Shown piece after piece: positions 3,635 through 60,851 of a stretch of DNA of 64,000 bases (positions are counted from its first letter, which is position 1; the number at the start of each line of letters is the position of its first letter). Source of the stretch: a virus (taxonomy: Duplodnaviria; Heunggongvirae; Uroviricota; Caudoviricetes); IMG/VR virus record IMGVR_UViG_3300035034_001740, positions 12,476 to 76,475 of that record; one strand, given 5' to 3'. Made by a program: the position numbers and the translations under genes. The notes beneath the pieces were generated by a model. It worked only from the letters and a program-made list of their open reading frames with translations, did no database searches and was not told where the DNA came from.

Positions 3635-3638
3635 AATT

Positions 3639-19200: not shown

Positions 19201-19209
19201 TTCAATCAT

Positions 19210-19238
19210 CCCCACAAGAGAACCTTGTGGGGGTTTTT
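19210..19238 (+). terminator. Rho-independent terminator (ccccacaag/cttgtgggg stem, then TTTTT)
   Basis: 9-bp perfect stem right after the prkA stop. Confidence 0.6.
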
Positions 19239-19251
19239 ACTAAATTAATTT

Positions 19252-19449: not shown

Positions 19450-19451
19450 TT

Positions 19452-20735: not shown

Positions 20736-20740
20736 AAGTT

Positions 20741-22348: not shown

Positions 22349-22383
22349 AAGACCCATCGATGAAATATTCGTTGGGTCTTTTC
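22349..22383 (+). terminator. Rho-independent terminator (aagaccca/tgggtctt stem + TTTT)
   Basis: Inverted repeat with a 16-nt loop after spoVR. Confidence 0.5.
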
Positions 22384-22423
22384 ATATATATGTATATATG
22401 AAAGTAAAGCACACACAACATAA
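22384..22423 (+). repeat. AT-alternating leader element ATATATATGTATATATG-AAAGTAAAGCACACACAACATAA (copy 1 of 2; see 45094)
   Basis: ~40-nt near-identical copy at 45094-45133; contains the start codon and first 8 codons of an MK[IV]KHT(R/Q)H gene. Confidence 0.6.
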
Positions 22424-23021
22424 ATCCATTCGGTCGCCTATAAAGGTGGGCCGATCTTGTTTTGACATTGGCGAACTACCATTTCCACAAATTTCGGACT
22501 TGAGACCATATCAACTCAAAATTTTTGATATGCTGTGTAGAGGTAAAACTTTGCATGTGACAAAATCTCGTCAAATTGGAATGACCACTGTAGCAGTTAT
22601 ATATGCCGGTTTAAAAATACAACAAGAAGGCGTTCGTCCAAACATTCTTGCAATGGATTCTAAGATGGAAAAACATATTGAACACATGATTACTGACCGT
22701 GTGGGCAATGAATCATGGAAATATATGCCAGTCGGTTGGTCTATGTTAGATGAAAGTGAATGGATACATGAACTTAAATTTAGAGGTGTGGATATAAAAG
22801 ACCAAGTGTTCTCATACTCATCTGTTCACTATGGAGGAGTATGTGACTTTCTGACAAGTAGATTTGTAAACGACCCTACATCAGAGTATAGATTGATAAC
22901 ATACAAAGATGCGTTTCCTGGAACTACTGATGAAGAGATTGACCAGTTGAAGTTGTATATGGGAAGTGTCGGATTTAATAAGGATATGATGTGTAAATTA
23001 CACCATGAGGAAAAGATTTAA
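22398..23021 (+). CDS. Hypothetical protein, MK[IV]KHTRHN-leader family member (MKVKHTQHK...)
   Basis: Starts with the conserved leader peptide; contains a P-loop-like SRQIGMTT. Confidence 0.5.
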   Translation: MKVKHTQHKSIRSPIKVGRSCFDIGELPFPQISDLRPYQLKIFDMLCRGKTLHVTKSRQIGMTTVAVIYAGLKIQQEGVRPNILAMDSKMEKHIEHMITDRVGNESWKYMPVGWSMLDESEWIHELKFRGVDIKDQVFSYSSVHYGGVCDFLTSRFVNDPTSEYRLITYKDAFPGTTDEEIDQLKLYMGSVGFNKDMMCKLHHEEKI

Positions 23022-23214
23022 AGGCGATTTAAAACTAACATCGGTCAACGTATTTGAAGATCGGTATAGAAAATTCAAAGAAGTAAATTTGGGTAGTAGT
23101 ATGACACTGCAAAAGTTGGTGAATCGTTCTTTAGCTCTATATCTAAAAGATGATGAGTATAGAATATTACTCGATGAAATGTTAGATTTACAAGATAGTG
23201 GAAGTTCGTTCTAA
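23005..23214 (+). CDS. Hypothetical protein
   Basis: ORF only. Confidence 0.35.
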   Translation: MRKRFKGDLKLTSVNVFEDRYRKFKEVNLGSSMTLQKLVNRSLALYLKDDEYRILLDEMLDLQDSGSSF

Positions 23215-23258
23215 TGAAAGTTAAACATACAAGACATTACAAAGGTGTAAATCTGTAG
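23214..23258 (+). pseudogene. Truncated MKVKHTRH-leader ORF (14 codons: MKVKHTRHYKGVNL*)
   Basis: Same leader codons as the other family members but stops after 14 aa; likely a remnant. Confidence 0.35.
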
Positions 23259-24776: not shown

Positions 24777-24993
24777 TTTTTACTTCAGACTATCAACCAT
24801 GTTTTACAGTATTGGAAAATACTTTGAACTCAAATCGTTCAAATCTGCCGTTTCAGACAGAGTTATGATTGACTTTCAAAAGAGGGTAAATTATAAAACA
24901 TCACATCCGATTGATGTGAATGATATTCGTGAAGCCATTGATAATGGTGATGACATATGTTTAAAGTTCGGCACTTATAAAAAGAAAAAATGA
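24769..24993 (+). CDS. Hypothetical protein
   Basis: ORF only. Confidence 0.3.
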   Translation: MSNFYFRLSTMFYSIGKYFELKSFKSAVSDRVMIDFQKRVNYKTSHPIDVNDIREAIDNGDDICLKFGTYKKKK

Positions 24994-25523
24994 AAACTAG
25001 AAACATATCAGACACGGAATATCAAATGCATAAATTGAGATTAGATTATGTAAATACAATATCAAAGTTTACTGCTATATCAGTTTCAGAAGCATTTAGA
25101 ATGGCAGACTTAATGATAACTCCAATCGAAGTTACAACAGATGAGAATCAAAACTCTCCGGCGGCCAACCCTAAAGGTGAAGACACTCCAGAGGAATCGG
25201 AATATCCTATAGCAAGTCCAATTCGTATTGGGAATCAACCTACTACCTCACCGACACAAAAGGTGACGCCTCAGTTTGAAGACATGGTTGACCCCAAAAT
25301 AAAGTCAACCGTTCCAGACAAAAAAGAGTTGCAGGTTAGTGAGGAACTTTATGATTCTCGTACTGCTGGGGGAACAATCCCTATGAGGTATGAAGACAGA
25401 GTTAAGTATGCTGAGGGTCATTCGTCACAACCTCAAAAAGAATCTATTGAACGGGCCGACGGAAATAAAGTTGATGGTCGAGGATTTGGAGAAAGCGGTG
25501 GAGATTACCCCCCATTACGATAA
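24990..25523 (+). CDS. Hypothetical Pro/Thr/Glu-rich protein
   Basis: Low-complexity central region. Confidence 0.4.
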   Translation: MKTRNISDTEYQMHKLRLDYVNTISKFTAISVSEAFRMADLMITPIEVTTDENQNSPAANPKGEDTPEESEYPIASPIRIGNQPTTSPTQKVTPQFEDMVDPKIKSTVPDKKELQVSEELYDSRTAGGTIPMRYEDRVKYAEGHSSQPQKESIERADGNKVDGRGFGESGGDYPPLR

Positions 25524-25539
25524 TTTTTAAGAATACAAT

Positions 25540-26838: not shown

Positions 26839-26894
26839 AATGAAACCAACAAACAACACTTTCGAATTCAAACTGTTAAAGAAAGAATTGACCC

Positions 26895-27692
26895 ATGAAA
26901 ATATCATTTTTAGTTACAGTTCATAACGAAACTACTGAGTTACAAACTTTGTTGAGCCAGTTGAATAGTTATTTGGATTCTACTGGACATAAAGATGAAG
27001 TTGTAATTCTAGACGATTACTCAACAAACAAAGATACAATCGATTTGATTGATACGTATTCCTCCATTGATAATTTTACAGTAGTTAAACATAAGCTCGA
27101 TGTTAAAGGTGAAGGATTCGGTGGTCACAAACAGTTTGGCAACGAACAGTGTAGTGGAGATTATATTTTCCAAGTTGATGCAGACGAATACTTTTCTGAC
27201 GCCCTACTTTACAACCTGAAAGAGTTGTTGATCGGAAACCCAACTGTGGATTTGTTCTTAATTCCAAGAGTCAACATCATAAGAGAACTGAATGTTTGGA
27301 ACTATGCCAAGTATGGATGGCAGATTTCAAAACTTGATGAATTTGAAGAACAAAAGGTGTTCGATGATCAATCATCAGAGTATCAATTTATAAAGAACTT
27401 CAATTTCGTAAGTAACGAAAAGAGAATAAGTGAAACTCAGATCGATGTTACATATAAACTTCCTATTATAAATTGGGGGTCCGGAGATTACCAATATAGA
27501 TTATACAGAAACTCAAAAGGTATAACATGGGATCGTCCGTTACATGAGTTGATAATTGGTGCTGATGTACAAACGTATCTGCCTAAAGAAGTTGAATGGT
27601 CACTCATACATGACAAGACGATGAGACGTCAAACTCAACAGAACACCTTTTACATGACGGAATTCAGCCAGGAGATGAATACAAGAAACTAA
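26895..27692 (+). CDS. Glycosyltransferase, family 2 (GT-A)
   Basis: MKISFLVTVHNE...VVILDDYSTN...QVDADEY (DxD). Confidence 0.6.
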   Translation: MKISFLVTVHNETTELQTLLSQLNSYLDSTGHKDEVVILDDYSTNKDTIDLIDTYSSIDNFTVVKHKLDVKGEGFGGHKQFGNEQCSGDYIFQVDADEYFSDALLYNLKELLIGNPTVDLFLIPRVNIIRELNVWNYAKYGWQISKLDEFEEQKVFDDQSSEYQFIKNFNFVSNEKRISETQIDVTYKLPIINWGSGDYQYRLYRNSKGITWDRPLHELIIGADVQTYLPKEVEWSLIHDKTMRRQTQQNTFYMTEFSQEMNTRN

Positions 27693-27696
27693 GATT

Positions 27697-28236
27697 ATGA
27701 ATACAATACTTGAACATTACGAATTAAAATGCAACACACGATCCGACATAAACGAACATCTACCTACGTTGTTTAGATATTCAAGTGAGTGTGATCATAT
27801 CACTGAAATGGGAGTTAGGGAAGTTGTTTCGACGTGGGCATTTCTGAATGCCAAACCCAGAAAAATGGTTAGTTATGATCTGTATACGAGTACACATATA
27901 AACGAACCCTTGAGACTCGCTAAAGAGAGTGGGATTGATTTTTCCTTCGTCGAAGCAAATGTATTGGAAGTCGATATCGAAAAAACTGATCTATTGTTTA
28001 TTGATACCGCTCACCAATATGAACAATTAAAGAATGAACTTTCGAAACATTCTGGCAAGGTTAAGAAATATATCATTCTACACGACACCACGTTATTCGC
28101 TCACACAGATGAGTCGACAGGTAATGTGGGTGGATTGGTTAAGGCCCTCGATGAATTTTTAGAAGAGAACTCTAATTGGCAACGGAAAGAAGTGTTTACA
28201 AATAACAATGGATTAACCGTACTCGAACGGGTTTAA
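27697..28236 (+). CDS. Class I SAM-dependent methyltransferase (TylF/CmcI-like, putative)
   Basis: ITEMGVREVVSTWAF...LLFIDTAHQYE...ILHDT resembles macrocin-O-MTase-like folds. Confidence 0.4.
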   Translation: MNTILEHYELKCNTRSDINEHLPTLFRYSSECDHITEMGVREVVSTWAFLNAKPRKMVSYDLYTSTHINEPLRLAKESGIDFSFVEANVLEVDIEKTDLLFIDTAHQYEQLKNELSKHSGKVKKYIILHDTTLFAHTDESTGNVGGLVKALDEFLEENSNWQRKEVFTNNNGLTVLERV

Positions 28237-28281
28237 TATAAATAATACTTAATTACAATATGGTCAATCAGTATATACAAC

Positions 28282-28893
28282 ATGCATTTTAACAGATTAC
28301 AACATCATTTCGATACTGGTGAAATGACCCCAACTTACGTTCTGGATATAGGAGCTAATAAAGGGGAATGGACACGTCAAGCATCACATATATGGAAATC
28401 TGCTAATTTCTATATGATTGAGGCATGTGAAGTTCACTCTAATCATTTAAAGGTCGTTGGATTTCCATACGATATACGAATCTTATCAGATTCATGTAAA
28501 TCCGTTGAGTTCTATACAAATAAGACTGACTTAGCATCAACAGGAAACTCACTCTACCGTGAAGACACCCATTACTTCTCAGACGATAACATATTGATAG
28601 AGACTAAAGAAGCTCGTTCGTTGGATTCGTTGAACTTGGGAAGGTTTGACATGATCAAATTGGATACACAAGGGTCTGAGATTGATATACTAAAAGGGTC
28701 ATCTGAAACCTTACTGGGTGTCAAACATATATTAATGGAAGTTTCCCTTACACAATATAATATTGGTTCTCCCAGGTTTTATGATGTGATTGAGTTTATA
28801 AATTCAATCGGATTCGAAGTTTTAGATATAATTGATAACCATTACTTAAACAATGAGCTCATTCAGGTGGATGTCTTATTTAAACGAAAATGA
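28282..28893 (+). CDS. FkbM family methyltransferase
   Basis: VLDIGANKGEWT is the FkbM signature. Confidence 0.6.
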   Translation: MHFNRLQHHFDTGEMTPTYVLDIGANKGEWTRQASHIWKSANFYMIEACEVHSNHLKVVGFPYDIRILSDSCKSVEFYTNKTDLASTGNSLYREDTHYFSDDNILIETKEARSLDSLNLGRFDMIKLDTQGSEIDILKGSSETLLGVKHILMEVSLTQYNIGSPRFYDVIEFINSIGFEVLDIIDNHYLNNELIQVDVLFKRK

Positions 28894-29621
28894 AAGTTTA
28901 TTACAGAATATCCGATTCGGGTTACAACAAAGTAAAGCCTGATTACATTTCCAATGAAAATTGTTATAATAACTTCATTAATAATTTCAAACACCCTAAC
29001 GAAGTCATATTGATAGCTGATAATGTCTCAGATGTTACGTGGTCATGGTGTCAGAATATGAGAGATCGTGATGGTCTACTTGAGATACATCGAACTAACG
29101 GTGGTTCATCTGGAAAAGGTTTCAATATATGTTATGATATGGCAATTCAACATGATGACGATGAGATAATATTCTTCGTGGAGAATGATTATATATTTGT
29201 CGATGGGATTTACGATTTTATGTTGGAAGCGTTTTACTTCGGTATTGAATATTTGACTCCGTATTTACATCCGGATAAGTTCATACCAGCTTCGCAGGGT
29301 GGGAATGTATTGGTAGACGATGACGGTGGTCAAGTTACGAAGGTGTTTAATACAGGCAGTCGATTCTGGATGTTAACTGATTCAACCACAATGACATTTG
29401 CTTCTACTGTTGGGGTGTTAAAACAAGACATGGATATAATAAAAGCATTCACATCAGAGCCATATCCAAACGATTGTAAGATGTTCCATTCTCTACGGGA
29501 TAAAGGACGTTCATTAGCACAACCCATTCCCACATTAGCCACTCACGGTGAGACGTCATGGATGGCATCTACAATTGGATTACATACAAACAATTGGGAG
29601 GATATTATTTATGGAAAATAA
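28890..29621 (+). CDS. Hypothetical protein, possible GT-A fold glycosyltransferase
   Basis: ILIADNVSD...HDDDEIIFFVENDY is a DxD-like arrangement. Confidence 0.35.
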   Translation: MKVYYRISDSGYNKVKPDYISNENCYNNFINNFKHPNEVILIADNVSDVTWSWCQNMRDRDGLLEIHRTNGGSSGKGFNICYDMAIQHDDDEIIFFVENDYIFVDGIYDFMLEAFYFGIEYLTPYLHPDKFIPASQGGNVLVDDDGGQVTKVFNTGSRFWMLTDSTTMTFASTVGVLKQDMDIIKAFTSEPYPNDCKMFHSLRDKGRSLAQPIPTLATHGETSWMASTIGLHTNNWEDIIYGK

Positions 29622-29862
29622 AGATTTAATTATAGGCGCAGTCGGTGATTATACGTTTGACCACACGGATAATTGTCCTTCACAGGATGACCCTCGTTAC
29701 CATGACTTTATCGAAGGCAGGAAGTTCTTTTATAATGAAGCTTATAATCAACGTCACGTTGGATACTCCAATCTTGCATATGATCACTCAACGTTTGATA
29801 TGGATGGCATCGCTAATGGCATTTGGATAAAGTCATCTAACTATAAACTTATTAATATATAA
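29611..29862 (+). CDS. Hypothetical protein
   Basis: Start chosen at the ATG overlapping the upstream stop (MENKDLIIGAVGDY...). Confidence 0.35.
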   Translation: MENKDLIIGAVGDYTFDHTDNCPSQDDPRYHDFIEGRKFFYNEAYNQRHVGYSNLAYDHSTFDMDGIANGIWIKSSNYKLINI

Positions 29863-29876
29863 CAACATATTATAAA

Positions 29877-29904
29877 TTGACATGTGTATCTCATATATCA
29901 TAAT
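29877..29904 (+). promoter_or_regulatory. sigma70-like promoter TTGACA-16-CATAAT
   Basis: ATAAATTGACA extended -35, upstream of the GT2 gene at 29913. Confidence 0.45.
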
Positions 29905-29912
29905 ATACTAAA

Positions 29913-30722
29913 ATGATTTCAGTAATTATACCAACTTATAAGAATCCAGAATATCTGGACATTTGTTTATCTTCATGTATCTCAGGTTCTAAGTTAGATA
30001 CCACTAGAATTATTGTTGTGGTTGACGGTTACATAGAACTATCTCAGAAGATATTGGATACGTATAATGAATCTATTTCGGTGTTAGACTTGGATGTCAA
30101 TCGTGGGATGGATGCTGCTATTAATTTAGGAGTTTGGAATTGTGATTCTGATAAGGTCTTCGTAGTGAACGATGATCAAATCTTTGCTGATGGGTGGGAT
30201 ATTGAACTAGATGCGTTAGACGTCGATTCCACGGTGTATACTATAGAACAGATAGAACGCAACGCTGGTATATTTAATTTTCACGTTGCTAACTTCGGAG
30301 ATACTGTTGATACATTTGACATGGAGAAATTCAATGAGTATGTAAATACTCACTCATCGAATAAACAAACTGACTCTGCCAGAATTTTCCCTTTTCTACT
30401 GAGTAAAAGGTGGTTCATGACTGTGGGCGGTTTTGAAAATTACAATTCTCCGTTTTGGACTGATGTCGATTTCTTTTTAAAGTTAGAACTAGCGGGTCTC
30501 ACATTCAAACGAATATACCACACAATGTTATTTCATTGGGGATCAACCGCTACAAAAAACCGCAAAGATTCTGAGTCGGTAGGTTTCCAAGATGGAGAAA
30601 GTCGGGCTGCTGAACAATTTTTTTATAAATGGGGGTATTTGCCACAGATAGGTGGCCAAAATACAGTTAATACGAAATATCCGACGCATAACAAGACTAT
30701 CAAAGGGATCGTATATGAGTAA
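29913..30722 (+). CDS. Glycosyltransferase, family 2
   Basis: MISVIIPTYKNPEYLDICL is the classic GT2 N-terminus; DxD in VVNDDQIF. Confidence 0.7.
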   Translation: MISVIIPTYKNPEYLDICLSSCISGSKLDTTRIIVVVDGYIELSQKILDTYNESISVLDLDVNRGMDAAINLGVWNCDSDKVFVVNDDQIFADGWDIELDALDVDSTVYTIEQIERNAGIFNFHVANFGDTVDTFDMEKFNEYVNTHSSNKQTDSARIFPFLLSKRWFMTVGGFENYNSPFWTDVDFFLKLELAGLTFKRIYHTMLFHWGSTATKNRKDSESVGFQDGESRAAEQFFYKWGYLPQIGGQNTVNTKYPTHNKTIKGIVYE

Positions 30723-31764
30723 ACACACATTTTTAATAACAGGAGTTGCTGGATTGATCGGATCGAATATGGCACACTGGTTAATAACCCATACAGATAG
30801 TAATGTCGTTGGTATTGATGATTTGTCAGGGGGAGCTGTTTCAAATTTGCCTGATGAGTCAGATAGATTTAAGTTTTATCAAGGCGATGCCGCGTCTGAT
30901 ATATTGAATCATATATTTGAGACTCACAAACCAACTCATGTATATCATTTTTCGTGTTGGGCGGCTGAAGGAGCCAGTCCATTTTTCAGAAAGCATAGTT
31001 TCTATACTAATAACATGGTGTCTGCTAATGTAGTTAATAACTGTATAAATCACGATGTCACCCGATTGTTGTTTACAAGTACAATGGCGGTATATGGCTA
31101 TGGGGATAACAACCCACCGTTCAGTGAAGAATTGATACCTGCCCCGATTGATACGTATGGTATTGGTAAATATGCAGTTGAGATGGATATACGGGTAGCT
31201 GGGATTCAACATGGGTTGGATTGGTGTATAATTCGTCCTCATAATGTATATGGGAAATTTCAACAGTATAATGACAAGTTTAGAAATGTGTTGGGGATTT
31301 GGATGTTCCAATACCTAAGAGGTTTGCCGCTAACTATATTTGGGGATGGTGAACAAAAACGGTCATTCTCATACATTGATGACACCCTTCACTGTTTTTA
31401 TAACGCGATGATGTTTTCTGAGTGTTCGTGTGAAGTTATCAATTTAGGTGGTATTCATGAATATTCTATAAATGACGCGTTAAGTGTTGTATTAGAGGTT
31501 TTTGAGGCTGATGGCAATCCATTTGGGTTTCCTCAAGTAGTACACTGTGAGTCTCGACACGAAGTGAAGGATGCTTATCCTACATATCAAAAGAGCGTCG
31601 ATATGTTGAAGTTTAACCATGTTACTGATTTAAGAAGTGGCATACAACATATGTGGAATTGGGTTAAGGATGATTACACCGCCCATAATAGATGTCAACT
31701 TGAGTTGGGTGAATTTGAAGTGTCTAAAGGGGTATACGAACAGTGGAAAGTCGATAAAAAATGA
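30716..31764 (+). CDS. NAD-dependent epimerase/dehydratase (extended SDR)
   Basis: FLITGVAGLIGSNMAHWL is a GxxGxxG Rossmann motif; YGIGKYAVE is the YxxxK catalytic motif. Confidence 0.8.
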
Positions 31765-32045
31765 AAGTTAAACACAACCGACACAACGACCGCGGTTCGA
31801 AAACGATTGTAAATAATAATCGGATTACTAAACAAGTTATGACACCATGTTATGATAACAAATTTGTATCTGAGGATTATATTGAAGAAGTTTCTAAGGC
31901 CAAAAGAGATAATTGTAATCATAACGAATGTGATCATTCTATAGGTTATTGTGTCGATGGGGATTTTTGGGGATTTAAAGATTCTGAATGGGAGTCGGTT
32001 ACATTTTGTATTAACGGCGAAGCCACAACCATTCCTTTATCATGA
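31761..32045 (+). CDS. Hypothetical Cys/His-rich protein, MK[IV]KHTRHN-leader family (MKVKHNRHN...)
   Basis: Conserved leader; ATGA overlap with the upstream stop. Confidence 0.5.
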   Translation: MKVKHNRHNDRGSKTIVNNNRITKQVMTPCYDNKFVSEDYIEEVSKAKRDNCNHNECDHSIGYCVDGDFWGFKDSEWESVTFCINGEATTIPLS

Positions 32046-36549: not shown

Positions 36550-37234
36550 ACTGAATCCTAAACTATGGGATAATGAAACTCTTAAATCAGATGTTCGAAG
36601 GAAGTTGATAAAGATTGCTAATGCGTTCCACAAGTTTCTTAATGTAAAGGCAAAGCTTCGTGATGTTATCATGACAGGAAGTTCAAGCAATTATAATTAC
36701 AGTTCTAAATTCTCAGACATTGACCTTCACTTGTTATATGACTTTGATGATGTTTTATCTGAGGAAGAGGAAGAACCCATTGAGACGGAAGCTGATTTGG
36801 TCAAGGAGTATATGATGGCTAAAAAAACCATTTGGAACGACAAATTTGATATCACCATAAATGGCGTTGAAGTGGAGTTATATTCACAAGATATTGATGA
36901 ACCTCACGAAGCTAACGGTCAGTTCTCCATTGTTAAAAATAATTGGGTTAAAAAGCCAGAGAAGATTGATGTTGAGTTGGATGAAAAAGCGGCTGAAAGT
37001 AAAGCTAAAGAATTAATGGATTTAATCGACCATACCCTTAAAGGCGACCCAAGTGACTCAACCATTCAGAAACTCAAGGATAAGATAAAGAGATTACGCC
37101 AAATCGGTCTTGACAAGGAAGATGGAGAGTATTCGGTAGAGAATCTCGCGTTTAAGGTTTTACGCCGAAGTGGATACATAGAAAAACTGTGGGATTCGGA
37201 GGTTGAATCACAACAAAAAGACTTTTCTTTATAA
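36515..37234 (+). CDS. Hypothetical protein, possible Pol-beta-type nucleotidyltransferase fold
   Basis: TGSSSNYNYSSKFSDIDLHL fits the GS...D-x-D motif. Confidence 0.35.
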   Translation: MKDYIDFQVHDKLNPKLWDNETLKSDVRRKLIKIANAFHKFLNVKAKLRDVIMTGSSSNYNYSSKFSDIDLHLLYDFDDVLSEEEEEPIETEADLVKEYMMAKKTIWNDKFDITINGVEVELYSQDIDEPHEANGQFSIVKNNWVKKPEKIDVELDEKAAESKAKELMDLIDHTLKGDPSDSTIQKLKDKIKRLRQIGLDKEDGEYSVENLAFKVLRRSGYIEKLWDSEVESQQKDFSL

Positions 37235-37266
37235 AAAGTTATTTTAAGTTGACAATTGGGATTTGA

Positions 37267-37286
37267 TAGTCTATCTATATAGACTA
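37267..37286 (+). promoter_or_regulatory. 20-bp palindrome TAGTCTATCTATATAGACTA overlapping the start codon of the 37286 gene
   Basis: Perfect 8-bp arms; 10 nt downstream of TTGACA at 37249. Confidence 0.35.
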
Positions 37287-40891: not shown

Positions 40892-41485
40892 ATGAAGGTT
40901 AGAGACGCTGTTGTAAGACGATCTATACACAGAGAACGTAATATGACAACATTCAATCAGATTGATCGGGGATACCCTTCAAAGATTAACAAAGAGAAGG
41001 AAGCTGAAGTTAATGATAAGTTTCGGAAGAACTCTCCGTGTATCAATAAATGTAGACTAGAAAACTACCGATGCAGCGCTTGTGGCCGTTCCCTAAAACA
41101 AATAGGGAATTGGCTATATTATACAAAATACGAACGAGAACGGATAATTAAGAAATTAAATATGACAGATCAGAAATTGAAAATTACAGGCAAGAACTTC
41201 GATTTGACGGAAGCTATTAAGGCTAACGTGAATGAGAAGATGACGAAGGTGTTTGAACACGACCATACTTCTAAAGTGAGTGTAGTTTTGGAAGAACAGA
41301 CTTCACACAATCCTCCGGAGTTTAGAGCTGCTGGTAATATAACAATTCACGACAAAACATATCACGTTGAGTCAACGACTGAGGATATGTACAAGTCGAT
41401 TAATGAACTTTCAAAGTTGATGCTCAGAGACATTCGGAGAGAACACTGTAAGTTTGAAGCGGGTCGGGTAAAAGATGAACAATAA
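40892..41485 (+). CDS. Ribosome hibernation promoting factor (HPF/RaiA)-like domain protein; N-terminal Zn-ribbon extension or alternative start at 41162
   Basis: C-terminal ~100 aa (KLKITGKNFDLTEAIKANVNEKMTKVFEH...HVESTTEDMYKSINELSKLMLRDIRREH) aligns along its length with E. coli HPF; N-part has CINKC...CSACG. Confidence 0.55.
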   Translation: MKVRDAVVRRSIHRERNMTTFNQIDRGYPSKINKEKEAEVNDKFRKNSPCINKCRLENYRCSACGRSLKQIGNWLYYTKYERERIIKKLNMTDQKLKITGKNFDLTEAIKANVNEKMTKVFEHDHTSKVSVVLEEQTSHNPPEFRAAGNITIHDKTYHVESTTEDMYKSINELSKLMLRDIRREHCKFEAGRVKDEQ

Positions 41486-43692: not shown

Positions 43693-43708
43693 AATAACTT
43701 ATTATAAA

Positions 43709-43737
43709 TTGACTTGGCGGTTTTTATCGTCATTATA
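43709..43737 (+). promoter_or_regulatory. sigma70-like promoter TTGACT-17-ATTATA
   Basis: TATAAATTGACT extended -35. Confidence 0.4.
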
Positions 43738-45093: not shown

Positions 45094-45133
45094 ATATATA
45101 TGTATATATGAAAATTAAACACACACGACATAA
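45094..45133 (+). repeat. AT-alternating leader element (copy 2 of 2) ATATATATGTATATATG-AAAATTAAACACACACGACATAA
   Basis: 36/40 identical to 22384-22423. Confidence 0.6.
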
Positions 45134-45512
45134 CGATGAGACGGATAATGGATTTGACTTCAGCAGATATCCGTCTCTCCGACACTACTCCTGTCACGCC
45201 AGATGTCGAGAGAATTTTTATGATGTAGACTTTATCTCCGTACCGATTACCTACACGGAGGGGGGTATCTGGACGAAATTCATGTCTGAGAACAAAGACA
45301 AACCCTCTGGCGATGATTGTATAGGTTCAACTTTACAGAATCCTTATTTTGAGATACTAAGAAGCAACTGTGCAGTCAATTTATCAGACACTAACGGAAA
45401 TCGCATTATATCATTCGATGTTGAATCTAAGAAGGTTCTAAGAGACGACGAAGATATCACAATGGATGATGCTTCTATTGGTCGTGCTGTAAGAGAATTC
45501 CTTTTCAATTAA
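45108..45512 (+). CDS. Hypothetical protein, MKIKHTRHN-leader family
   Basis: Start placed at the conserved leader Met inside the repeated element (the ORF extends to 45084). Confidence 0.5.
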   Translation: MKIKHTRHNDETDNGFDFSRYPSLRHYSCHARCRENFYDVDFISVPITYTEGGIWTKFMSENKDKPSGDDCIGSTLQNPYFEILRSNCAVNLSDTNGNRIISFDVESKKVLRDDEDITMDDASIGRAVREFLFN

Positions 45513-45531: not shown

Positions 45532-45846
45532 ATGTATTACGTAATAGACACAACACGAAAAAACAATGATGGTCAAAGCCTCGCAGCATCATACAACACA
45601 GTTGAAGAAGTAGTAGCGCACTTAGAAGTAATGTGCCCGCGACTAACTAACAAAACAAGATCACAACTCATGAGTGATGCTGCTGATTTAGGATTCGGAG
45701 ACGATGACATCTATGGCAAAAATTTCACAAACATGATGATTGAACAAAATGTTAACATTGGGGTTATCAGACAAGATGGACAGCCTATCAGATGTGACAT
45801 TCACAACGACGATCAGTTCAGTAATAAGACAGAATACGGACATTAA
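45532..45846 (+). CDS. Hypothetical protein
   Basis: ORF only. Confidence 0.4.
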   Translation: MYYVIDTTRKNNDGQSLAASYNTVEEVVAHLEVMCPRLTNKTRSQLMSDAADLGFGDDDIYGKNFTNMMIEQNVNIGVIRQDGQPIRCDIHNDDQFSNKTEYGH

Positions 45847-47471
45847 TGTCGATAGAGAATATCAAGTTTACACGGCCGGAAACTGTTCATTCTCCAAGAG
45901 GTAAGAAGTATGTTCGTCATTGGGTGTTACCTAACGATGAAGTAGTTGTAAAGGGATTTTGGAAGTTCTGGAAAGCCAACAAGCAGAAGATGATTCTGCG
46001 TGGTTTTTCAATGTCCAAGGATAAGTCAACAGGCAAATGGAGGTTGGTAGAAACCAAAGAACGAATAGATGATTTCGCTGACTATAAAAAGAAGCCTGAG
46101 ATTGTCATGGAATGTTCTTGGGAACCCAAGCCACTTGATAATCCAGAAGGGCTTAGAGAATGGCAAGTTCCTGCCGCTGCTAAATTGGCCGATTGTATAA
46201 GACAAATTGGTTCAGCTATAGATGGTTCCGATACAGGTTCAGGTAAGACATATACTGCTATCGGTGCTGCTCGTGAGTTGGGTATGAAGGTGGCTGTCGT
46301 TTGTCCAAAGGCTGTTATAGAATCGTGGAAACGTGTTATCAAAGATCACTTCAAACTTGATTTGGTCTTTGTATTGAACTATGAGGCGTTGAAAGGCGGC
46401 AAGTATACAGATTACATAGAGTTAAAGCGTTTAGAGAATTCAATGATGACAACATATCATTGGAATTTGCCAAAAGATACGTTAATAATATTCGATGAAA
46501 GTCACAGACTTAAAGGTAAAGACACAAAGAATGCTCAGATGGCTATAGCAGCTAAACGACAGTCTTACAAAGTATTGTGTTGTTCAGCAACAAATGCTAT
46601 CGACCCATTGGAATTGAATGCTGTTGGATATATTTTGGGACTTCATAAATGTGGAATGGACTTCTATCAGTTCGCTAAGGATTACGGTTGTAAGAAGGGT
46701 ATTGGTGGGTTACATTTTCCAGGTGACAATTATAGTTTAAAGAAACTACACAAAGACATTTTCATTGAACGTGGGGTTCGATTAAAGAAGGATGAAATTC
46801 CTGGATTTCCTGATAGTGATATCATAGTTGACCCTTATACTATTGAGGATGACGATGCTGAGGAAATTAATCGTATCTATTCTGAGATGGAGAATGAGCT
46901 TAAAAACCTTGAGATACAGTCAGGCCCAAAGACTGCTGTTGAAATGACCATCAGACTTCGTGCTCGACAAAAGATTGAGTTGCTGAAAGTTCCGTTGATT
47001 GTTGAAATGACAGAAGACTTGATAGCCGATGGGCAGTCTGTTGTTATTATGACAAACTTCTCAGATACTATTAGAGCATTATCCAAGAAGCTGAAAACAA
47101 ACTGTATTGTTTGGGGTGAGAACAAAGGTGATGAAAGACAGAAGAACATTGACGATTTCCAATCTGACGAAGAACGGATTTTGATATTGAATATTGCCGC
47201 TGGCGGTGTTGGTGTTTCGTTACATGATTTGCATGGCAATCATCCAAGAACAGCTTTGATATCACCTAATGATAGTGCTCCTTTAATGAGACAGGCGTTT
47301 GGCCGTGTTCATAGAGACGGCGCTAAAACAAAGAGTCAACAAAGAGTCTTGTTTATTGCCAATACGGTTGAGGAACAAGTATGTAATAACGTTAAAGTTA
47401 AGTTGACGAGTTTAGATAGAATTAATGATGGAGATTTAAATCCTAAGTATGAAGGGATGTTACGAGAATGA
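45846..47471 (+). CDS. SF2 helicase, SNF2/DEAD-like
   Basis: Motif I SDTGSGKTYTA, motif II IIFDESHRLKG, C-terminal helicase domain LNIAAGGVGVSLHD...QAFGRVHRDG (motif VI). Confidence 0.7.
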   Translation: MSIENIKFTRPETVHSPRGKKYVRHWVLPNDEVVVKGFWKFWKANKQKMILRGFSMSKDKSTGKWRLVETKERIDDFADYKKKPEIVMECSWEPKPLDNPEGLREWQVPAAAKLADCIRQIGSAIDGSDTGSGKTYTAIGAARELGMKVAVVCPKAVIESWKRVIKDHFKLDLVFVLNYEALKGGKYTDYIELKRLENSMMTTYHWNLPKDTLIIFDESHRLKGKDTKNAQMAIAAKRQSYKVLCCSATNAIDPLELNAVGYILGLHKCGMDFYQFAKDYGCKKGIGGLHFPGDNYSLKKLHKDIFIERGVRLKKDEIPGFPDSDIIVDPYTIEDDDAEEINRIYSEMENELKNLEIQSGPKTAVEMTIRLRARQKIELLKVPLIVEMTEDLIADGQSVVIMTNFSDTIRALSKKLKTNCIVWGENKGDERQKNIDDFQSDEERILILNIAAGGVGVSLHDLHGNHPRTALISPNDSAPLMRQAFGRVHRDGAKTKSQQRVLFIANTVEEQVCNNVKVKLTSLDRINDGDLNPKYEGMLRE

Positions 47472-47701
47472 AGATTAAACACATCCGACACAATACAAAA
47501 GATACTCTTAACTTTCCGTTTAGACTATATTGGGAAGAATATTCAATGAATGGAGGTGTTATAAAGAAGAACACTTTAATAGATGATGTAATACAACTAG
47601 CACATTACATAGTGTTACTTGGGACGACTCCTGAATTTAAGGGCCTTATAACTCCTGAAGAAGACATAAAAAAATTATTCGATGGAAATCAAAAAACATG
47701 A
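47468..47701 (+). CDS. Hypothetical protein, MKIKHIRHN-leader family
   Basis: Conserved leader; ATGA overlap with the helicase stop. Confidence 0.45.
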   Translation: MKIKHIRHNTKDTLNFPFRLYWEEYSMNGGVIKKNTLIDDVIQLAHYIVLLGTTPEFKGLITPEEDIKKLFDGNQKT

Positions 47702-48327
47702 GTCACGATAGAAGAGGTAAAGGAACACGACCTATATTAGAGTCGGAGATACGAGCTGCACAATCTATAGCTAATAGTGCTATGGATGCTGCCAAGAAGC
47801 TCGGGGTTCATTATAGCACATACAAACGGTGGGCTAAGAAGTATGGTGTCCATGATTTCTTCAATCAAGAAGGGAAAGGCAGACCAAAGAAACACAAAAA
47901 TCCATCTAAAGGCAAATACCCATTAAATGATATATTGGATGGGAAACATCCAGACCACCCGACGCATCTATTTAAGAAGAAGCTTATACAATCGGAAATT
48001 AAAAAAAATGAATGTGAAATATGCGGTTTCAAAGACATAAGAGAAGATGGACAAGCTCCTATTCTGATAAAGTATATGGATGGCAACCCAAGAAACAAAT
48101 CTTTGGAGAATGTTCAGTTCGTATGTTACAATCATGCTTTCATCCACGGAATTGAAAAGTCAATCCGCCATGATAGATTCGCCAAGTTTGAAGAGCCAGG
48201 AAAGCTACAAAATACAGTTGAAAAGATTGCTGAACGTGAGGGTAAAGTCGCCGGCGTTCCTATGAATATCAATACAGATGAATTGACTGAGGATGAAATT
48301 AATAGTTTATTAAATACCGATGAATGA
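47698..48327 (+). CDS. HNH endonuclease with N-terminal HTH-like region
   Basis: ECEICGF...MDGNPRNKSLENVQFVCYNHAFIHG is an HNH motif. Confidence 0.55.
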   Translation: MSHDRRGKGTRPILESEIRAAQSIANSAMDAAKKLGVHYSTYKRWAKKYGVHDFFNQEGKGRPKKHKNPSKGKYPLNDILDGKHPDHPTHLFKKKLIQSEIKKNECEICGFKDIREDGQAPILIKYMDGNPRNKSLENVQFVCYNHAFIHGIEKSIRHDRFAKFEEPGKLQNTVEKIAEREGKVAGVPMNINTDELTEDEINSLLNTDE

Positions 48328-57978: not shown

Positions 57979-58323
57979 ATGAAAATAAAACATTTAAAGA
58001 AACCAACGAAACAAGAACTTATCAACGATCTTAATTTTCTATGTGGTCACAAGTTGTCTCTGGACTATAACTTTGAAGTGCTCGACAAAGTTGTTGAGAC
58101 TTCCGGAAGTCCTATGTTTGAGGCAGTCTACATGTCATTTGATTTTGCGTGTGACATGTTATCTAAGAGACATGATATTTCACCCGATGACGTGGGTTGG
58201 TTCGTTTATGATAATGAAATGGGAGAGGCTAGCTTAGAGTGTGCGGTTGTGATTGATGGGGTAACTAAGTTCAAGGAAATTAAAACCGTGGAGGATTTCG
58301 TAGACACTATACGAACAACTTAA
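57979..58323 (+). CDS. Hypothetical protein (MKIKHLKK..., divergent leader-family member)
   Basis: ORF only. Confidence 0.4.
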   Translation: MKIKHLKKPTKQELINDLNFLCGHKLSLDYNFEVLDKVVETSGSPMFEAVYMSFDFACDMLSKRHDISPDDVGWFVYDNEMGEASLECAVVIDGVTKFKEIKTVEDFVDTIRTT

Positions 58324-58552: not shown

Positions 58553-58897
58553 ATGAAGAACTTTAAGGAAAGTGTTGACGATAGAATCCAAGATATAATG
58601 GATACTTTTGATTTTGATAGAGTTCATAAGGTTATGCATGACACGAATTGGATGTGGTCAGGGAGAGGAATTCCAACTGTAACAGGTCTAAGACAGACTG
58701 CTGAAAAGTTGTTAAATGATGTGGTTAATAGTCGGTCAAGATATATTTCCACAGGAGGTTTGACTGTAACGTTGTATAGAACTGACACATGGTTTGATTT
58801 AAACTTAAGTTTTGTTGTCACCGACTGTAGTGTTGATGGGATATTCTATACAGATGATACGTCTACCCATAAGAAACACAAAATTAAAATGTCATGA
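58553..58897 (+). CDS. Hypothetical protein
   Basis: ORF only. Confidence 0.4.
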   Translation: MKNFKESVDDRIQDIMDTFDFDRVHKVMHDTNWMWSGRGIPTVTGLRQTAEKLLNDVVNSRSRYISTGGLTVTLYRTDTWFDLNLSFVVTDCSVDGIFYTDDTSTHKKHKIKMS

Positions 58898-59178
58898 GGA
58901 TTAAACATACTCGTCACAATGTTCCATCGATACACGATGATATAGAAAGAATCGTTGAAGATGTGTTAAAAAAATACATATTCCAACTCGTAGATGATTT
59001 TCTTTTATGGTCAATAGAAACTAACATAAGAGATGACATTCATGATGAACTTGAAGAATGTACTATCAATTCGATTATTACAACTTATGGGTCAAGTGGA
59101 TTTTATGTAACTTTGGATTATCTGATAGAAGGAGACCCTGATATCCATTACTTTAAAACTCTAATTCCGGCGAGTTAA
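58894..59178 (+). CDS. Hypothetical protein, MRIKHTRHN-leader family
   Basis: Conserved leader; ATGA overlap. Confidence 0.45.
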   Translation: MRIKHTRHNVPSIHDDIERIVEDVLKKYIFQLVDDFLLWSIETNIRDDIHDELEECTINSIITTYGSSGFYVTLDYLIEGDPDIHYFKTLIPAS

Positions 59179-60621: not shown

Positions 60622-60813
60622 ATGACGATTAAATATAAGAAACGTTTAAAATGTGAATGGTGTGATAATCACAACGGTGTATTGAGATATCGACAGAACA
60701 CGAACTATTCCGACGAAGAGTTGAATTGGAAATCATTATGTCAGAATTGCAAAGATGAAAACGATTGTTGGTGGGAAATAATGTGGAAAGAGTTAGAAAA
60801 TAACTTATTTTAA
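60622..60813 (+). CDS. Small zinc-ribbon protein
   Basis: CEWC...CQNC. Confidence 0.35.
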   Translation: MTIKYKKRLKCEWCDNHNGVLRYRQNTNYSDEELNWKSLCQNCKDENDCWWEIMWKELENNLF

Positions 60814-60851
60814 ATTGACATTTGAGTCTATATCGTATCTGATTGAATCAT

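What the first reader, a model, noticed from the sequence alone, without database searches (positions are those of the whole stretch)
45094..45512. Family of unrelated small ORFs sharing the N-terminal nonapeptide MK[IV]KHTRHN
**What the sequence shows.** At least six ORFs begin with the same leader and then diverge completely:
- 22398: MKVKHTQHK
- 31761: MKVKHNRHN
- 45108: MKIKHTRHN
- 47468: MKIKHIRHN
- 58894: MRIKHTRHN
- 23214: MKVKHTRHY, truncated after 14 aa
- 57979: MKIKHLKK, a weaker variant

The leader codons differ at synonymous positions (CAC/CAT, ACA/ACT, CGA/CGT/AGA, AAC/AAT). Conservation is therefore at the peptide level, not only at the DNA level. Three members overlap the upstream stop codon (ATGA).

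**Inference.** This is a shared N-terminal tag. It could be a capsid-targeting or export signal, a protease recognition site or a degron, in the way T4 internal proteins share a capsid-targeting sequence. I do not recognise this motif from any described system.
Basis: seen in the sequence. Interest (0 to 1): 0.75.

Follow-up and report, generated by a model that had tools for sequence, protein, structure and literature searches.

The report
Shared N-terminal peptide on phage ORFs
Six genes in this uncultured large phage, and about two dozen more in its close relatives, begin with nearly the same nine amino acids (MK-I/V-K-H-x-R-H-x) although the proteins are otherwise unrelated; the peptide is conserved at the protein level, so it is probably a short address or recognition tag, but what reads it is unknown.

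Summary
Six + strand ORF starts (22398, 23214, 31761, 45108, 47468, 58894) encode M[KR][IV]KH.[RQ]H. Shuffled sequence gives 0, and residue frequencies predict about 2.5e-6.

Synonymous sites between the copies are saturated (pS 0.89) while pN is 0.14. Recent DNA duplication is therefore excluded, and selection acts on the peptide.

The motif is not confined to this window. I found 29 instances in six related uncultured phage lineages (helicase at least about 60% identical, where a helicase is available). The consensus is M-K-I-K-H-[KT]-R-H-K. They sit on at least nine ortholog groups with no detectable similarity beyond the leader, including a TerL-ATPase-like protein. Many lie in a variable array of 0-4 small ORFs after the helicase gene. 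In three ortholog pairs the leader is 56-67% identical and the rest about 30%. More distant relatives lack it.

Best reading (confidence about 0.4): a short basic, His-containing N-terminal linear motif read by a common partner. It works like the T4 capsid-targeting sequence but is not a member of that family.

Main rival: an early-elongation "ramp" motif. This fits residues 2-5 only. The motif sits 2-5 residues further in within one ortholog group, which argues against it.

Function is untested.

The parts
45108..45512 (+). Leader ORF, 134 aa, MKIKHTRHN (leader codons at 45108-45134). It belongs to ortholog group A, which is present in four phages.
   Evidence: Translation. Orthologs: L052 7675, L092 9107 and L094 9324. 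No Pfam or PHROG hit. An in-frame ATG also lies at 45084.
45094..45110 (+). 17-nt alternating purine/pyrimidine quasi-palindrome ATATATATGTATATATG. Its last three bases are the leader ATG. It is probably a promoter or operator.
   Evidence: It occurs exactly twice in the window, at 22384 and 45094. The two sites match over 43 nt at 88% (family D9). The same element sits next to the ATG of the orthologs in phages D and E, and 5 nt upstream of it in phage B.
45069..45087 (+). Hairpin CCATATCG-TTTT-CGTATGG, just upstream of the quasi-palindrome.
   Evidence: Read from the sequence. Inferred to be a terminator for the upstream gene.
22398..23021 (+). Leader ORF, 207 aa, MKVKHTQHK. It is a TerL-ATPase-like protein whose Walker A reads RQIGMTT (Lys replaced by Met).
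   Evidence: Weak hit to phrog_5989, terminase large subunit. Its homolog P0005 starts MKLNYTRHK and hits phrog_2 and phrog_675, both terminase large subunit, at 1e-7 and 5e-6.
22384..22400 (+). Second copy of the quasi-palindrome ATATATATGTATATATG, abutting the leader ATG.
22349..22380 (+). Hairpin AAGACCCA...TGGGTCTT followed by TTTC. It ends the PrkA/SpoVR-like operon.
   Evidence: Read from the sequence. The terminator role is inferred.
23214..23258 (+). 14-codon mini-ORF MKVKHTRHYKGVNL. It overlaps the upstream stop (TAATG). It is in frame with the glycosyltransferase gene at 23280 but separated from it by TAG TAA. It is a leader without cargo, most simply the remnant of a deleted leader gene.
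   Evidence: The glycosyltransferase has its own start, with AAGGAAGAG upstream, and a typical N-terminus MKNKKKRILLL.
31761..32045 (+). Leader ORF, 94 aa, MKVKHNRHN, rich in Cys and His. It overlaps the stop of the epimerase gene as ATGA.
   Evidence: No family hit.
47468..47701 (+). Leader ORF, 77 aa, MKIKHIRHN. It is the only ORF of the variable array between the helicase gene (45846-47471) and the HTH gene (47698-48327). It belongs to ortholog group C (leader, basic linker, then FPxxxxW).
   Evidence: Orthologs in phages B, D, E and G. The array holds 0-4 leader ORFs in the relatives.
58894..59178 (+). Leader ORF, 94 aa, MRIKHTRHN, with a very acidic body. It overlaps the upstream stop as ATGA.
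   Evidence: The only family hit is a weak one to phrog_261 (E = 0.004), which I do not rely on.
57979..58323 (+). ORF starting MKIKHLKK. It shares only the first five residues and is not counted as a member.
   Evidence: MK.K starts are common in this genome.

Best explanation
The nonapeptide is a lineage-specific short linear motif at or near the N-terminus. Its consensus over six phage lineages is M-K-I-K-H-[K/T]-R-H-K. It is kept by purifying selection on the amino-acid sequence.

I think it most likely acts as a portable recognition tag. It is a basic, His-containing stretch, possibly an extended strand with Ile3 and His5 on one face and Lys2 and Lys4 on the other. One common partner, phage-encoded or host, would bind it. 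That would give a shared fate to a fast-turning-over set of otherwise unrelated proteins: small array ORFs and a TerL-ATPase-like protein. The shared fate could be recruitment to a single site, such as the assembling capsid or packaging vertex, or binding to a common polyanionic surface or nucleic acid.

**Shown:**
- the motif exists;
- its conservation is at the protein level;
- it is spread over at least nine unrelated ortholog groups in six related phages;
- it is concentrated in variable tandem arrays.

**Inferred:**
- that a partner reads it;
- what that partner is;
- where the tagged proteins go.
For: 1. **Selection on the peptide.**
   - pS is 0.89 against pN 0.14, and third-position entropy is about 2.5 times that of first and second positions.
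   - Arg7 is kept through CGA, AGA, CGT and CGC.
2. **The leader is the best-conserved part of fast-evolving proteins.** It is 56-67% identical in three ortholog pairs whose remainders are 30-33% identical.
3. **Spread.** There are 29 instances in phages W, B, C, D, E and G. H5 is present in 21 of 29, R7 in 21 of 29 and H8 in 17 of 29, while background His frequency is 2.5%.
4. **Unrelated carriers.**
   - Smith-Waterman z-scores with the leader removed group the carriers into at least nine families. Only groups C and D are detectably paralogous.
   - One carrier is TerL-like.
5. **Residues 2-4 follow a genome-wide bias, but H5-x-R7-H8 is family-specific.**
   - 35 of 98 genes start MK.
   - Of the 9 genes starting M[KR][IVL]K, 6 have H5 and 5 also have .[RQ]H.
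6. **Position is flexible in group A.**
   - The motif sits 2-5 residues in from the N-terminus in phages B, D and E.
   - In phage D it is expanded to (HKK)5, which keeps the His i,i+3 spacing with basic residues between.
   - A binding motif tolerates this. A codon-position-specific translation effect does not.
7. **Genomic setting.** Variable tandem arrays of 0-4 diverse small ORFs sit at one locus. [quoted passage not shown]
Against: - No partner, destination or cleavage has been identified.
- The structural gene module of these phages was not seen in any locus, so a capsid link is pure analogy.
- No consistent protease-type site follows the leader.
- Conservation is soft in phages D and E (for example MKVKHRLSY, MRIKRTVSY, MKIIHRKRQ). 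Softness is also what a physicochemical or translational preference would give.
- Residues 2-5 coincide with motifs known to raise protein yield.
- Leader genes are enriched for stop-start overlap with the upstream gene (4 of 6 against 12 of 93), which hints at a link with translation.
- The lineage-specific flavour (T6/N9 in the window phage, K6/K9 in phage B) can be explained by the lower G+C content of B. It need not reflect co-evolution with a partner.
- Both structure predictions were too poor to show whether the leader is a free tail.
Confidence: 0.4

Rival explanations
1. **Early-elongation 'translational ramp'.** The first codons are optimised, at both the amino-acid and the nucleotide level, for processive early elongation or re-initiation. 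This would serve genes that lack a Shine-Dalgarno sequence and are either translationally coupled or nearly leaderless. Under this view the shared peptide is a by-product of selection for yield.
For: - Verma et al. 2019 (PMC6920384) report that codons 3-5 change yield by orders of magnitude.
- In that study the best motifs are AADUAU and AAVAUU (K|N followed by Y|I), 'regardless of their synonymous codons'. KIH, KFS and KYY are listed as high expressers.
- The leader and its variants fit this vocabulary: K-I-K-H, K-I-I-H, K-L-N-Y (AAU UAU), R-I-K-Y and K-I-K-F.
- The genome as a whole prefers MK, I3 and K4.
- Leader genes are enriched for ATGA or TAATG overlaps (4 of 6 against 12 of 93, p = 0.006).
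- Two leader genes have a promoter-like element touching the ATG.
- The leader RNA is A/C-rich, above 98% of other genes for three of the six.
Against: - The family-specific part is H5-x-R7-H8, and R7 and H8 lie beyond the codon 3-5 window.
- In group A the motif is shifted 2-5 codons downstream in three phages and is still conserved.
- Leader genes do not differ from other genes in Shine-Dalgarno strength (Mann-Whitney p = 0.57) or in folding energy from -20 to +40.
- A conserved Arg whose codons contain G does not fit a simple A/C-rich, unstructured-RNA rule.
- The Verma data are from E. coli reporters. The host here is unknown.
Confidence: 0.25
2. **Intrinsic polycationic His/Lys patch with no specific partner.** The motif would be a small built-in functional element that each protein needs for its own activity. 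Examples are binding of nucleic acid, polyphosphate, membrane or metal. It would be inherited by descent within old paralogous families and occasionally transferred by 5'-end recombination.
For: - The net charge is +3 to +5 over nine residues, with two His at i,i+3.
- The expansion to (HKK)5 in phage D keeps that spacing.
- Conservation is soft and class-preserving: H/Y/F at position 5, R/K at 7, H/Y/N at 8.
- Groups C and D are true paralogs that share the leader, a basic linker and FPxxxxW. Some of the sharing is therefore by descent.
Against: - The carriers have very different bodies: pI from 4.1 to 9.5, length from 47 to 207 aa, and a TerL-like ATPase alongside tiny acidic proteins. A common intrinsic need is hard to see.
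- Position-specific conservation of I3, H5 and R7 is tighter than a charge patch requires.
- No Pfam or PHROG family covers the motif.
Confidence: 0.15
3. **Degradation or processing signal.** The leader would be recognised by a host AAA+ protease or adaptor, or by a phage peptidase. Phages D and E encode an M42 aminopeptidase nearby. The effect would be to time the lifetime of early accessory proteins.
For: - The motif is near the N-terminus on many small, probably early, accessory proteins.
- A Peptidase_M42 gene lies a few kb upstream of the arrays in phages D and E.
- An N-terminal Met-basic-hydrophobic start resembles one class of ClpX N-terminal recognition motifs. This rests on my own knowledge of Flynn et al. 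2003 and was not checked here.
Against: - The motif is internal by 2-5 residues in group A.
- No M42 gene was identified in the window genes that were scanned.
- No conserved cleavage context follows the leader.
- The idea is entirely untested.
Confidence: 0.1
4. **DNA- or RNA-level element, or recent duplication of one 5' segment.** Examples would be a recombination site, an operator, an mRNA operator for a translational repressor, or a PeSL-like cassette.
For: - Two copies (22398 and 45108) share 43 nt at 88%, including 17 identical upstream bases and a preceding hairpin.
- The repeat finder groups four of the leaders as a 24-nt family at 79-83% identity (family D3).
Against: - Synonymous sites are saturated, and variation has the 3-nt periodicity of coding sequence.
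- Conservation starts exactly at the ATG in four of six copies, with nothing conserved upstream.
- The motif never occurs out of frame or on the other strand.
- The extended similarity of the two promoter-proximal copies concerns the upstream regulatory element, which is a separate feature.
Confidence: 0.04
5. **Ultra-short split-intein C-fragment.** The window carries several genuine split inteins whose C-fragments start MKYKF, MRIKK or MKVIK and end in HN. Four of the six leaders end in HN.
For: - Fractured IMPDH-like and ribonucleotide reductase genes with IntN and IntC halves lie at 10495-16630.
- The leaders at 31761, 45108, 47468 and 58894 end in R-H-N.
Against: - The residue after HN is D, D, T or V, not a consistent Cys, Ser or Thr nucleophile.
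- Asn9 is not conserved in phages B, D and E, where K, I, L, Y and others occur.
- The upstream genes are full length and carry no Hint domain. The helicase is 541 aa against 534-548 aa in intein-free relatives.
- Genuine C-fragments in this window are about 36-59 residues, and their last strand is hydrophobic (ANGAVVHN).
Confidence: 0.01

Closest known systems
T4 / T-even internal proteins with the capsid-targeting sequence (CTS)
   Same: - A short N-terminal peptide of about 10 residues is shared by small proteins that are otherwise highly diverse.
- The genes lie in variable loci of a large phage.
- In T4 the peptide is sufficient to address foreign proteins (PMC3012670).
   Different: - There is no sequence similarity. 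The T4 CTS is MKTYQEFIAE-like and acidic/hydrophobic (from my own knowledge), while this motif is basic and His-containing.
- No (L/I)xE-type prohead-protease site consistently follows the leader.
- Packaging into capsids was not shown.
- No relationship of these phages to T4 was shown.
- One carrier is a TerL-like ATPase.
High-yield early-elongation motifs at codons 3-5 (K|N-Y|I, KIH; Verma et al. 2019, PMC6920384)
   Same: - Strictly 5'-proximal.
- Acts at the amino-acid level irrespective of synonymous codons.
- The K/N/I/Y/H vocabulary matches leader residues 2-5 and its variants.
   Different: - It does not account for conserved R7 and H8, or for the motif being displaced 2-5 codons in ortholog group A.
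- It was defined in E. coli reporters, not as a natural shared leader.
Encapsulin cargo-loading peptides and scaffold-mediated cargo loading of HK97-fold shells
   Same: A short terminal peptide on unrelated cargo proteins addresses them to the inside of a capsid-like shell. This rests on my own knowledge.
   Different: - Those peptides are usually C-terminal, with different consensus sequences.
- No shell protein or cargo relationship is known here.
PeSL mobile regulatory cassettes of T4-type phages (promoter plus stem-loop flanking shuffled ORFs; Arbiol et al. 2010, from my own knowledge, paper not read here)
   Same: Two leader genes (22398 and 45108) are preceded by a hairpin plus a conserved promoter-like element. 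The leader ORFs also sit in variable regions.
   Different: - PeSLs are non-coding DNA repeats that act through homologous recombination.
- Here the conserved part is coding and diverged at synonymous sites.
- Four of the six copies have no upstream element.

Membership tests
T4-type capsid-targeting sequence (CTS) | About 10 conserved N-terminal residues on otherwise unrelated small proteins of one phage | tested here: met
   Six copies in the window and 29 in six lineages. The bodies are unrelated.
T4-type capsid-targeting sequence (CTS) | Sequence similarity to the T-even CTS (MKTYQEFIAE-like) | tested here: not met
   The consensus is MKIKH[KT]RHK, which shares no residues beyond MK. The T4 sequence is quoted from my own knowledge.
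T4-type capsid-targeting sequence (CTS) | The leader ends at a prohead-protease site ((L/I)-x-E in T4) and is removed | tested here: not met
   There is no Glu within the leader. The following 10-15 residues show no consistent L/I-x-E. Actual cleavage cannot be tested here.
T4-type capsid-targeting sequence (CTS) | Tagged proteins are packaged in the head through the scaffolding core | not testable with these tools
   This needs virion proteomics. No capsid, scaffold or protease gene was seen in about 74 kb of this phage or in the related loci.
Early-elongation ramp motif (Verma 2019) | K|N followed by Y|I (or KIH-type) at codons 3-5 | tested here: inconclusive
   The leader has K-I at codons 2-3 and K-H, K-Y or K-F at codons 4-5. 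The variant MKLNY is an exact AAUUAU. The register is offset by one codon.
Early-elongation ramp motif (Verma 2019) | The effect depends on position at the very start of the ORF | tested here: not met
   In ortholog group A the conserved motif starts at residue 3-6 in phages B, D and E. In addition, R7 and H8 are conserved outside the 3-5 window.
Sec / Tat / lipoprotein signal peptide | A basic n-region followed by a hydrophobic h-region of 7-15 residues | tested here: not met
   The residues after the leader are polar or acidic, for example NDETDNGFDF, NTKDTLNFPF and NVPSIHDDIE.
Split-intein C-fragment | A terminal His-Asn followed by a Cys, Ser or Thr nucleophile, with a partner that carries the N-fragment | tested here: not met
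   The +1 residues are D, D, T and V. Asn9 is not conserved in the relatives. The upstream genes lack Hint domains.
Non-coding DNA repeat or mobile regulatory cassette (PeSL-like) | Conservation at the DNA level, independent of reading frame | tested here: not met
   pS is 0.89 against pN 0.14. Variation has 3-nt periodicity. The motif always follows a start codon in frame, or lies within a few codons of one, and is never on the other strand.
RiPP-type precursor leader | A conserved leader on short hypervariable core peptides, with a modification enzyme or RRE domain encoded nearby | tested here: not met
   The carriers are 47-207 aa proteins and include an ATPase fold. No RiPP enzyme was found among the Pfam hits in the window.

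The most novel reading that the evidence does not exclude
A previously undescribed portable address tag. The N-terminal peptide MKIKHxRH would direct a rapidly diversifying set of small proteins, plus a truncated TerL-like ATPase, to one destination in an uncultured clade of large aquatic phages. The most attractive destination is the procapsid or portal, so that the proteins are co-injected as anti-defence or take-over effectors. This would be a functional analogue of the T4 CTS that arose independently with a different chemistry. It would be usable as a nine-residue packaging or recruitment tag.
Probability: 0.25. Interest if true: 0.75.

Novelty: new variant of a known kind. Interest (0 to 1): 0.55.

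Why it matters
- Short terminal peptides that give unrelated proteins a common fate are rare in phages. The T4 capsid-targeting sequence is the classic case and became a practical tool for packaging foreign proteins.
- A second, chemically different example would point to a common receptor worth finding. This one marks variable arrays of small ORFs in a large uncultured phage clade.
- It would also flag about 30 orphan ORFs as one functional class, possibly injected effectors or anti-defence proteins.
- It would provide a nine-residue tag for engineering.
- If the motif turns out instead to be a natural early-elongation enhancer, it would be a clear in-genome example of the codon 3-5 rule, which so far rests mainly on reporter libraries.
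- Either way, the motif is a handy marker for this phage clade in metagenomes.

Tried and rejected
- **Close relatives in the INPHARED collection of GenBank phage genomes.** None were found by megablast of 10 kb or by tblastn of two leader proteins. The helicase reaches only about 25% identity there.
- **DNA pattern scans for the back-translated leader.**
  - IMG/VR gave only contig Ga0208645_1000711, which is the same contig as L017 and L050.
  - The metagenome scan gave 37 single hits, roughly the number I estimated for chance. Only L017 and L018 are real.
  - The GTDB genome scan gave 22 single hits, none in a related context. Several are recurrent unrelated sequences in Nitrosomonas, Nitrospiraceae and Bacteroidales.
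- **Profile search with the leader alone.** A 45-residue version recovered only the input proteins.
- **Search for homologs of the 22398 protein.** The word-indexed search found only the query itself. The exhaustive search found one true homolog, P0005.
- **The search for related loci with the TerL-like alignment in IMG/VR.** Nothing was found.
- **Structure prediction.** The 22398 protein gave pLDDT 45 and the 47468 protein pLDDT 44. Both are too poor to use, so no fold search was run.
- **Shine-Dalgarno strength, local RNA folding and codon usage of leader genes.** None differs from the other genes.
- **tRNA and Rfam scans of the window.** Both were empty.
- **Bacteroidota host.** I first suspected this because many genes lack a Shine-Dalgarno sequence. 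I dropped the idea after finding a repeated TTATTATAAATTGACA promoter-like family of sigma-70 type.
- **Co-evolution with a partner.** I considered this as the reason for the lineage-specific residues 6 and 9. I do not rely on it, because the lower G+C content of phage B (0.32 against 0.38) can drive ACA to AAA and AAC to AAA.
- **Ultra-short intein fragment.** Considered and rejected (see the rival explanations).
Full report
**1. The observation**

A six-frame scan finds the strict pattern M[KR][IV]KH.[RQ]H six times: 22398, 23214, 31761, 45108, 47468 and 58894. The looser pattern [KR][IVL]K[HYF].[RKQ][HN] is also found six times. Every hit directly follows an ATG on the + strand. Shuffles give 0 and 0.07 hits. 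The window's own residue frequencies predict about 2.5e-6 such starts among about 110 genes.

- Five of the six ATGs are the first start after an in-frame stop. 45108 has another in-frame ATG at 45084.
- The six ORFs are 207, 14, 94, 134, 77 and 94 codons long.
- With the leader removed they show no pairwise similarity.
- 57979 (MKIKHLKK) shares only what this genome prefers in general. 35 of 98 genes start MK and nine start M[KR][IVL]K. I do not count it as a member.

**2. Peptide level or DNA level**

Nei-Gojobori counts over codons 2-9 of the six window copies give pS 0.89 and pN 0.14 (ratio 0.16). Third-position entropy is 1.13 bits, against 0.50 and 0.42 at first and second positions. Arg7 is encoded by CGA, AGA, CGT and CGC across copies. 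Synonymous sites are therefore saturated. The copies are old, they are not homogenised at the DNA level, and the amino acids are what selection holds.

The alignment of the flanks shows that conservation begins at the ATG. Two copies are an exception. 22398 and 45108 also share the 17-mer ATATATATGTATATATG, whose last three bases are the start codon, and a hairpin just upstream. I treat that as a separate regulatory element.

**3. What the window is**

The window has no close relative among deposited phage genomes. The genes are almost all on the + strand and tightly packed. They encode:

- NAD salvage enzymes (NAMPT, NUDIX/NadR-like, PRPP synthetase);
- split-intein 'fractured' IMPDH-like and ribonucleotide reductase genes;
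- a PrkA/SpoVR-like operon;
- a glycosyltransferase cluster;
- dUTPase, dCMP deaminase, thymidylate synthase and UvdE;
- a ribosome hibernation factor;
- an SNF2-type helicase.

Relatives found through the helicase sit on contigs of up to 297 kb. This is a large, possibly jumbo, uncultured phage clade. No structural gene other than a TerL-like fragment was seen in the window, in 9.5 kb further upstream (L090) or in the related loci.

**4. The motif in relatives**

A DNA pattern scan of metagenome contigs gave 37 single hits, roughly the number I estimated for chance. Two of them, from one sample, were real. L018 is syntenic with window 44.5-55.8 kb, with the helicase 61% identical, and it carries several leader ORFs. 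The helicase homolog search and contig look-ups added more lineages. An exhaustive protein search added a homolog of the 22398 protein.

Counts per lineage:

| Lineage | Locus | Helicase identity to window | Leader instances |
|---|---|---|---|
| W | window | - | 6 |
| B | L052 plus L017 | 61% | 5 |
| C | L080 | not available | 1 |
| D | L092 | 65% | 8, plus the partial form MIIHIRHIE |
| E | L094 | 63% | 7 |
| G | L098 | 66% | 2 |

- Over these 29 instances the consensus is M26 K25 I23 K19 H21 [K11/T9] R21 H17 K13.
- Phage F (L096, helicase 63%) has none in 21 kb. There the helicase gene is followed directly by the HTH gene.
- Relatives at 55% (L097) and at 45-50% (L038-L041) have none.

**5. 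Who carries it**

Smith-Waterman z-scores with the first 14 residues removed sort the carriers into at least nine ortholog groups plus singletons. Only groups C and D are detectably paralogous: they share the leader, a basic linker and FPxxxxW.

- Group I is a roughly 200-aa protein with the TerL ATPase signature: LRPYQ, then HVTK[SA]RQIGMTT, then a Walker B DE. It has Met in place of the Walker A lysine.
- The locus between the helicase gene and the following HTH gene holds 0 (F), 1 (W), 2 (B) or 4 (D, E) leader ORFs in tandem. Phage G has two ORFs there, but only the second carries the motif. Most are linked by overlapping stop and start codons.
- In three ortholog pairs the leader is 56-67% identical and the rest 30-33%.
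- The 14-codon ORF at 23214 is a leader with no cargo. It is in frame with a glycosyltransferase that has its own start, and it is cut off from that gene by TAG TAA. The simplest reading is that it is the stump of a deleted leader gene.

**6. Clues to mechanism**

- **(a) General bias against the specific core.** Residues 2-4 follow the genome-wide N-terminal preference. H5-x-R7-H8 is specific: of nine M[KR][IVL]K genes, six have H5 and five also have .[RQ]H, against 2.5% His overall.
- **(b) Position is not strict.** In ortholog group A (W 45108, B 7675, D 9107, E 9324) the motif is not at the extreme N-terminus in three phages: MKEEK-LKIKYKRHK, MK-KLNITHKKHKK... and MENDK-IKIKHNRAT. In phage D it is expanded to (HKK)5, which keeps His at i,i+3 with basic residues between.
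- **(c) No difference in translation signals.** Leader genes do not differ from other genes in Shine-Dalgarno strength or local RNA folding. They are enriched for stop-start overlap (4 of 6 against 12 of 93, p = 0.006).
- **(d) RNA composition.** The leader RNA is A/C-rich.
- **(e) No shared body property.** The bodies range from pI 4.1 to 9.5.
- **(f) No known family.** No Pfam or PHROG family covers any small carrier.
- **(g) Structure prediction failed.** The two models have pLDDT 45 and 44.

**7. Interpretation**

A DNA or RNA element, or a recent duplication, is excluded by section 2. An ultra-short intein fragment is tempting, because genuine split inteins in this window start MKYKF, MRIKK or MKVIK and end in HN. 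It is excluded because the residue after HN is D, D, T or V, because Asn9 is not conserved in the relatives, and because the upstream genes carry no Hint domain. There is no hydrophobic segment, so it is not an export signal.

Two serious readings remain.

- **Early-elongation ramp.** Verma et al. 2019 (PMC6920384) showed that K|N-Y|I and KIH at codons 3-5 raise yield irrespective of synonymous codons. This explains residues 2-5 and the overlap enrichment. It does not explain R7 and H8, or the shifted but conserved motif of group A.
- **Protein-level linear motif read by a common partner.** This explains all conserved positions, the tolerance to small N-terminal extensions, the His/Lys repeat expansion, and the presence on unrelated proteins in variable arrays. 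[quoted passage not shown]

I therefore favour the tag at about 0.4, with the ramp at about 0.25. Other readings share the rest: an intrinsic polycationic His patch at about 0.15 and a degron at about 0.1. None of these is demonstrated. The partner, the destination and any processing are inferences.

**8. Comparison with known systems, and novelty**

The motif works like the T4 capsid-targeting sequence in its genomic logic. It fails two defining features of that family, namely sequence similarity and a following protease site, so it is not a member. I found no description of this motif, and neither the Pfam nor the PHROG library contains it. I rate it a new variant of a known kind (a shared terminal peptide on unrelated phage proteins) with unknown function.

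**9. Limits**

- Only about 74 kb of this phage and about 20 kb each of five relatives (about 2.5 kb for phage C) were available.
- The structural module was not seen, and the host is unknown.

Noticed in passing
window 10495-16630: These are 'fractured' genes joined by split inteins. An IMPDH/GMP-reductase-like gene is split into two ORFs: 10495-11412 ends in an IntN that starts CFLGDTMV, and 11518-12360 starts with an IntC that ends IIAHN|C. A ribonucleotide reductase is split into four ORFs (12542, 13334, 14528, 15533) by three split inteins whose IntC fragments end VVHN|C, LVHN|C and VSHN|T. This matches the arrangement of Dassa et al. 2009 (PMC2677866), except that no homing-endonuclease gene lies between the halves.
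   Followed up: partly
window 22398-23021; L080 692-1282: A roughly 200-aa protein family has the TerL ATPase core but Met in place of the Walker A lysine (HVTK[SA]RQIGMTT), and it has no nuclease domain. It could be an inactive decoy, a fragment of a fractured terminase, or a regulator. In phage C the gene lies between the two GT1 glycosyltransferase genes. In the window it lies upstream of them.
   Followed up: partly
window 22384-22400 and 45094-45110; L092 ~9092-9109; L094 just upstream of 9324; L052 ~7652-7669: A conserved alternating purine/pyrimidine quasi-palindrome, (TA)3-4 G/C (TA)3, abuts the start codon and is preceded by a terminator-like hairpin. The central base is G in W and D and C in B and E. 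This suggests a palindromic operator, or a promoter whose transcript starts at or next to the AUG (a leaderless mRNA).
   Followed up: partly
window 8789-8826, 29856-29891, 37233-37270, 43693-43730, 60799-60836: A repeated intergenic motif, AAyTTATTwTAAATTGACa, occurs five times, each upstream of a gene start. It probably marks a family of sigma-70-type promoters (UP-like A/T tract plus TTGACA). The -10-like TATATA boxes lie very close to the ATG, which implies very short 5' UTRs.
   Followed up: no
window 17281-22321: A PrkA/YeaG-like kinase gene (639 aa), a 65-aa ORF, a YeaH-like gene and a SpoVR-like gene are carried as an operon by the phage. The closest phage copies (55-61% identical) are in Enterobacter phage LAU1, Ralstonia jumbo phage RsoM2USA and uncultured phages of more than 630 kb.
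   Followed up: partly
window 2092-7569: An NAD+ salvage and PRPP module: a NUDIX/NadR-like gene (2092-2979), a histidine phosphatase (2981-3634), NAMPT (3990-5444) and PRPP synthetase (6616-7569). A CTP_transf_like gene lies just before them.
   Followed up: no
window 23280-31764: A cluster of two GT1 and two GT2 glycosyltransferases, an FkbM methyltransferase and a nucleotide-sugar epimerase. Leader elements sit at both ends of it (the mini-ORF at 23214 and the ORF at 31761).
   Followed up: no
window 40892-41485; L052 3546-3854; L092 4874-5194: A phage-encoded ribosome hibernation factor (S30AE / HPF-like), fused to DUF1289 in the window copy. It is conserved across the clade.
   Followed up: no
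L098 10001-12646; L052 5028-6236 (- strand): Mobile elements in the relatives. A LAGLIDADG-type intein (Hom_end_hint / Hom_end) sits inside the helicase gene of phage G, which is 881 aa against 541 aa elsewhere. An IS605 OrfB/TnpB gene lies in phage B.
   Followed up: no
L059, L074, L077, L035, L037 (Nitrosomonas); L070, L011, L022, L024 (Nitrospiraceae): The pattern scan hit recurrent short ORF-like sequences in bacterial genomes, upstream of other genes. One is MKIKHSRHKRRGIKPGKY** before a lipoprotein-like gene in Nitrosomonas. Another is MKIKHLRHKRDKEDHKYSPYDYESN*. They are unrelated to the phage family and probably chance matches, but each is conserved within its own lineage.
   Followed up: no
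L090 9258-9566 (about 250 nt upstream of the window start): A Cpn10 (GroES-like) gene and a CCA-adding / poly(A) polymerase-family gene lie in the same phage, just outside the window.
   Followed up: no
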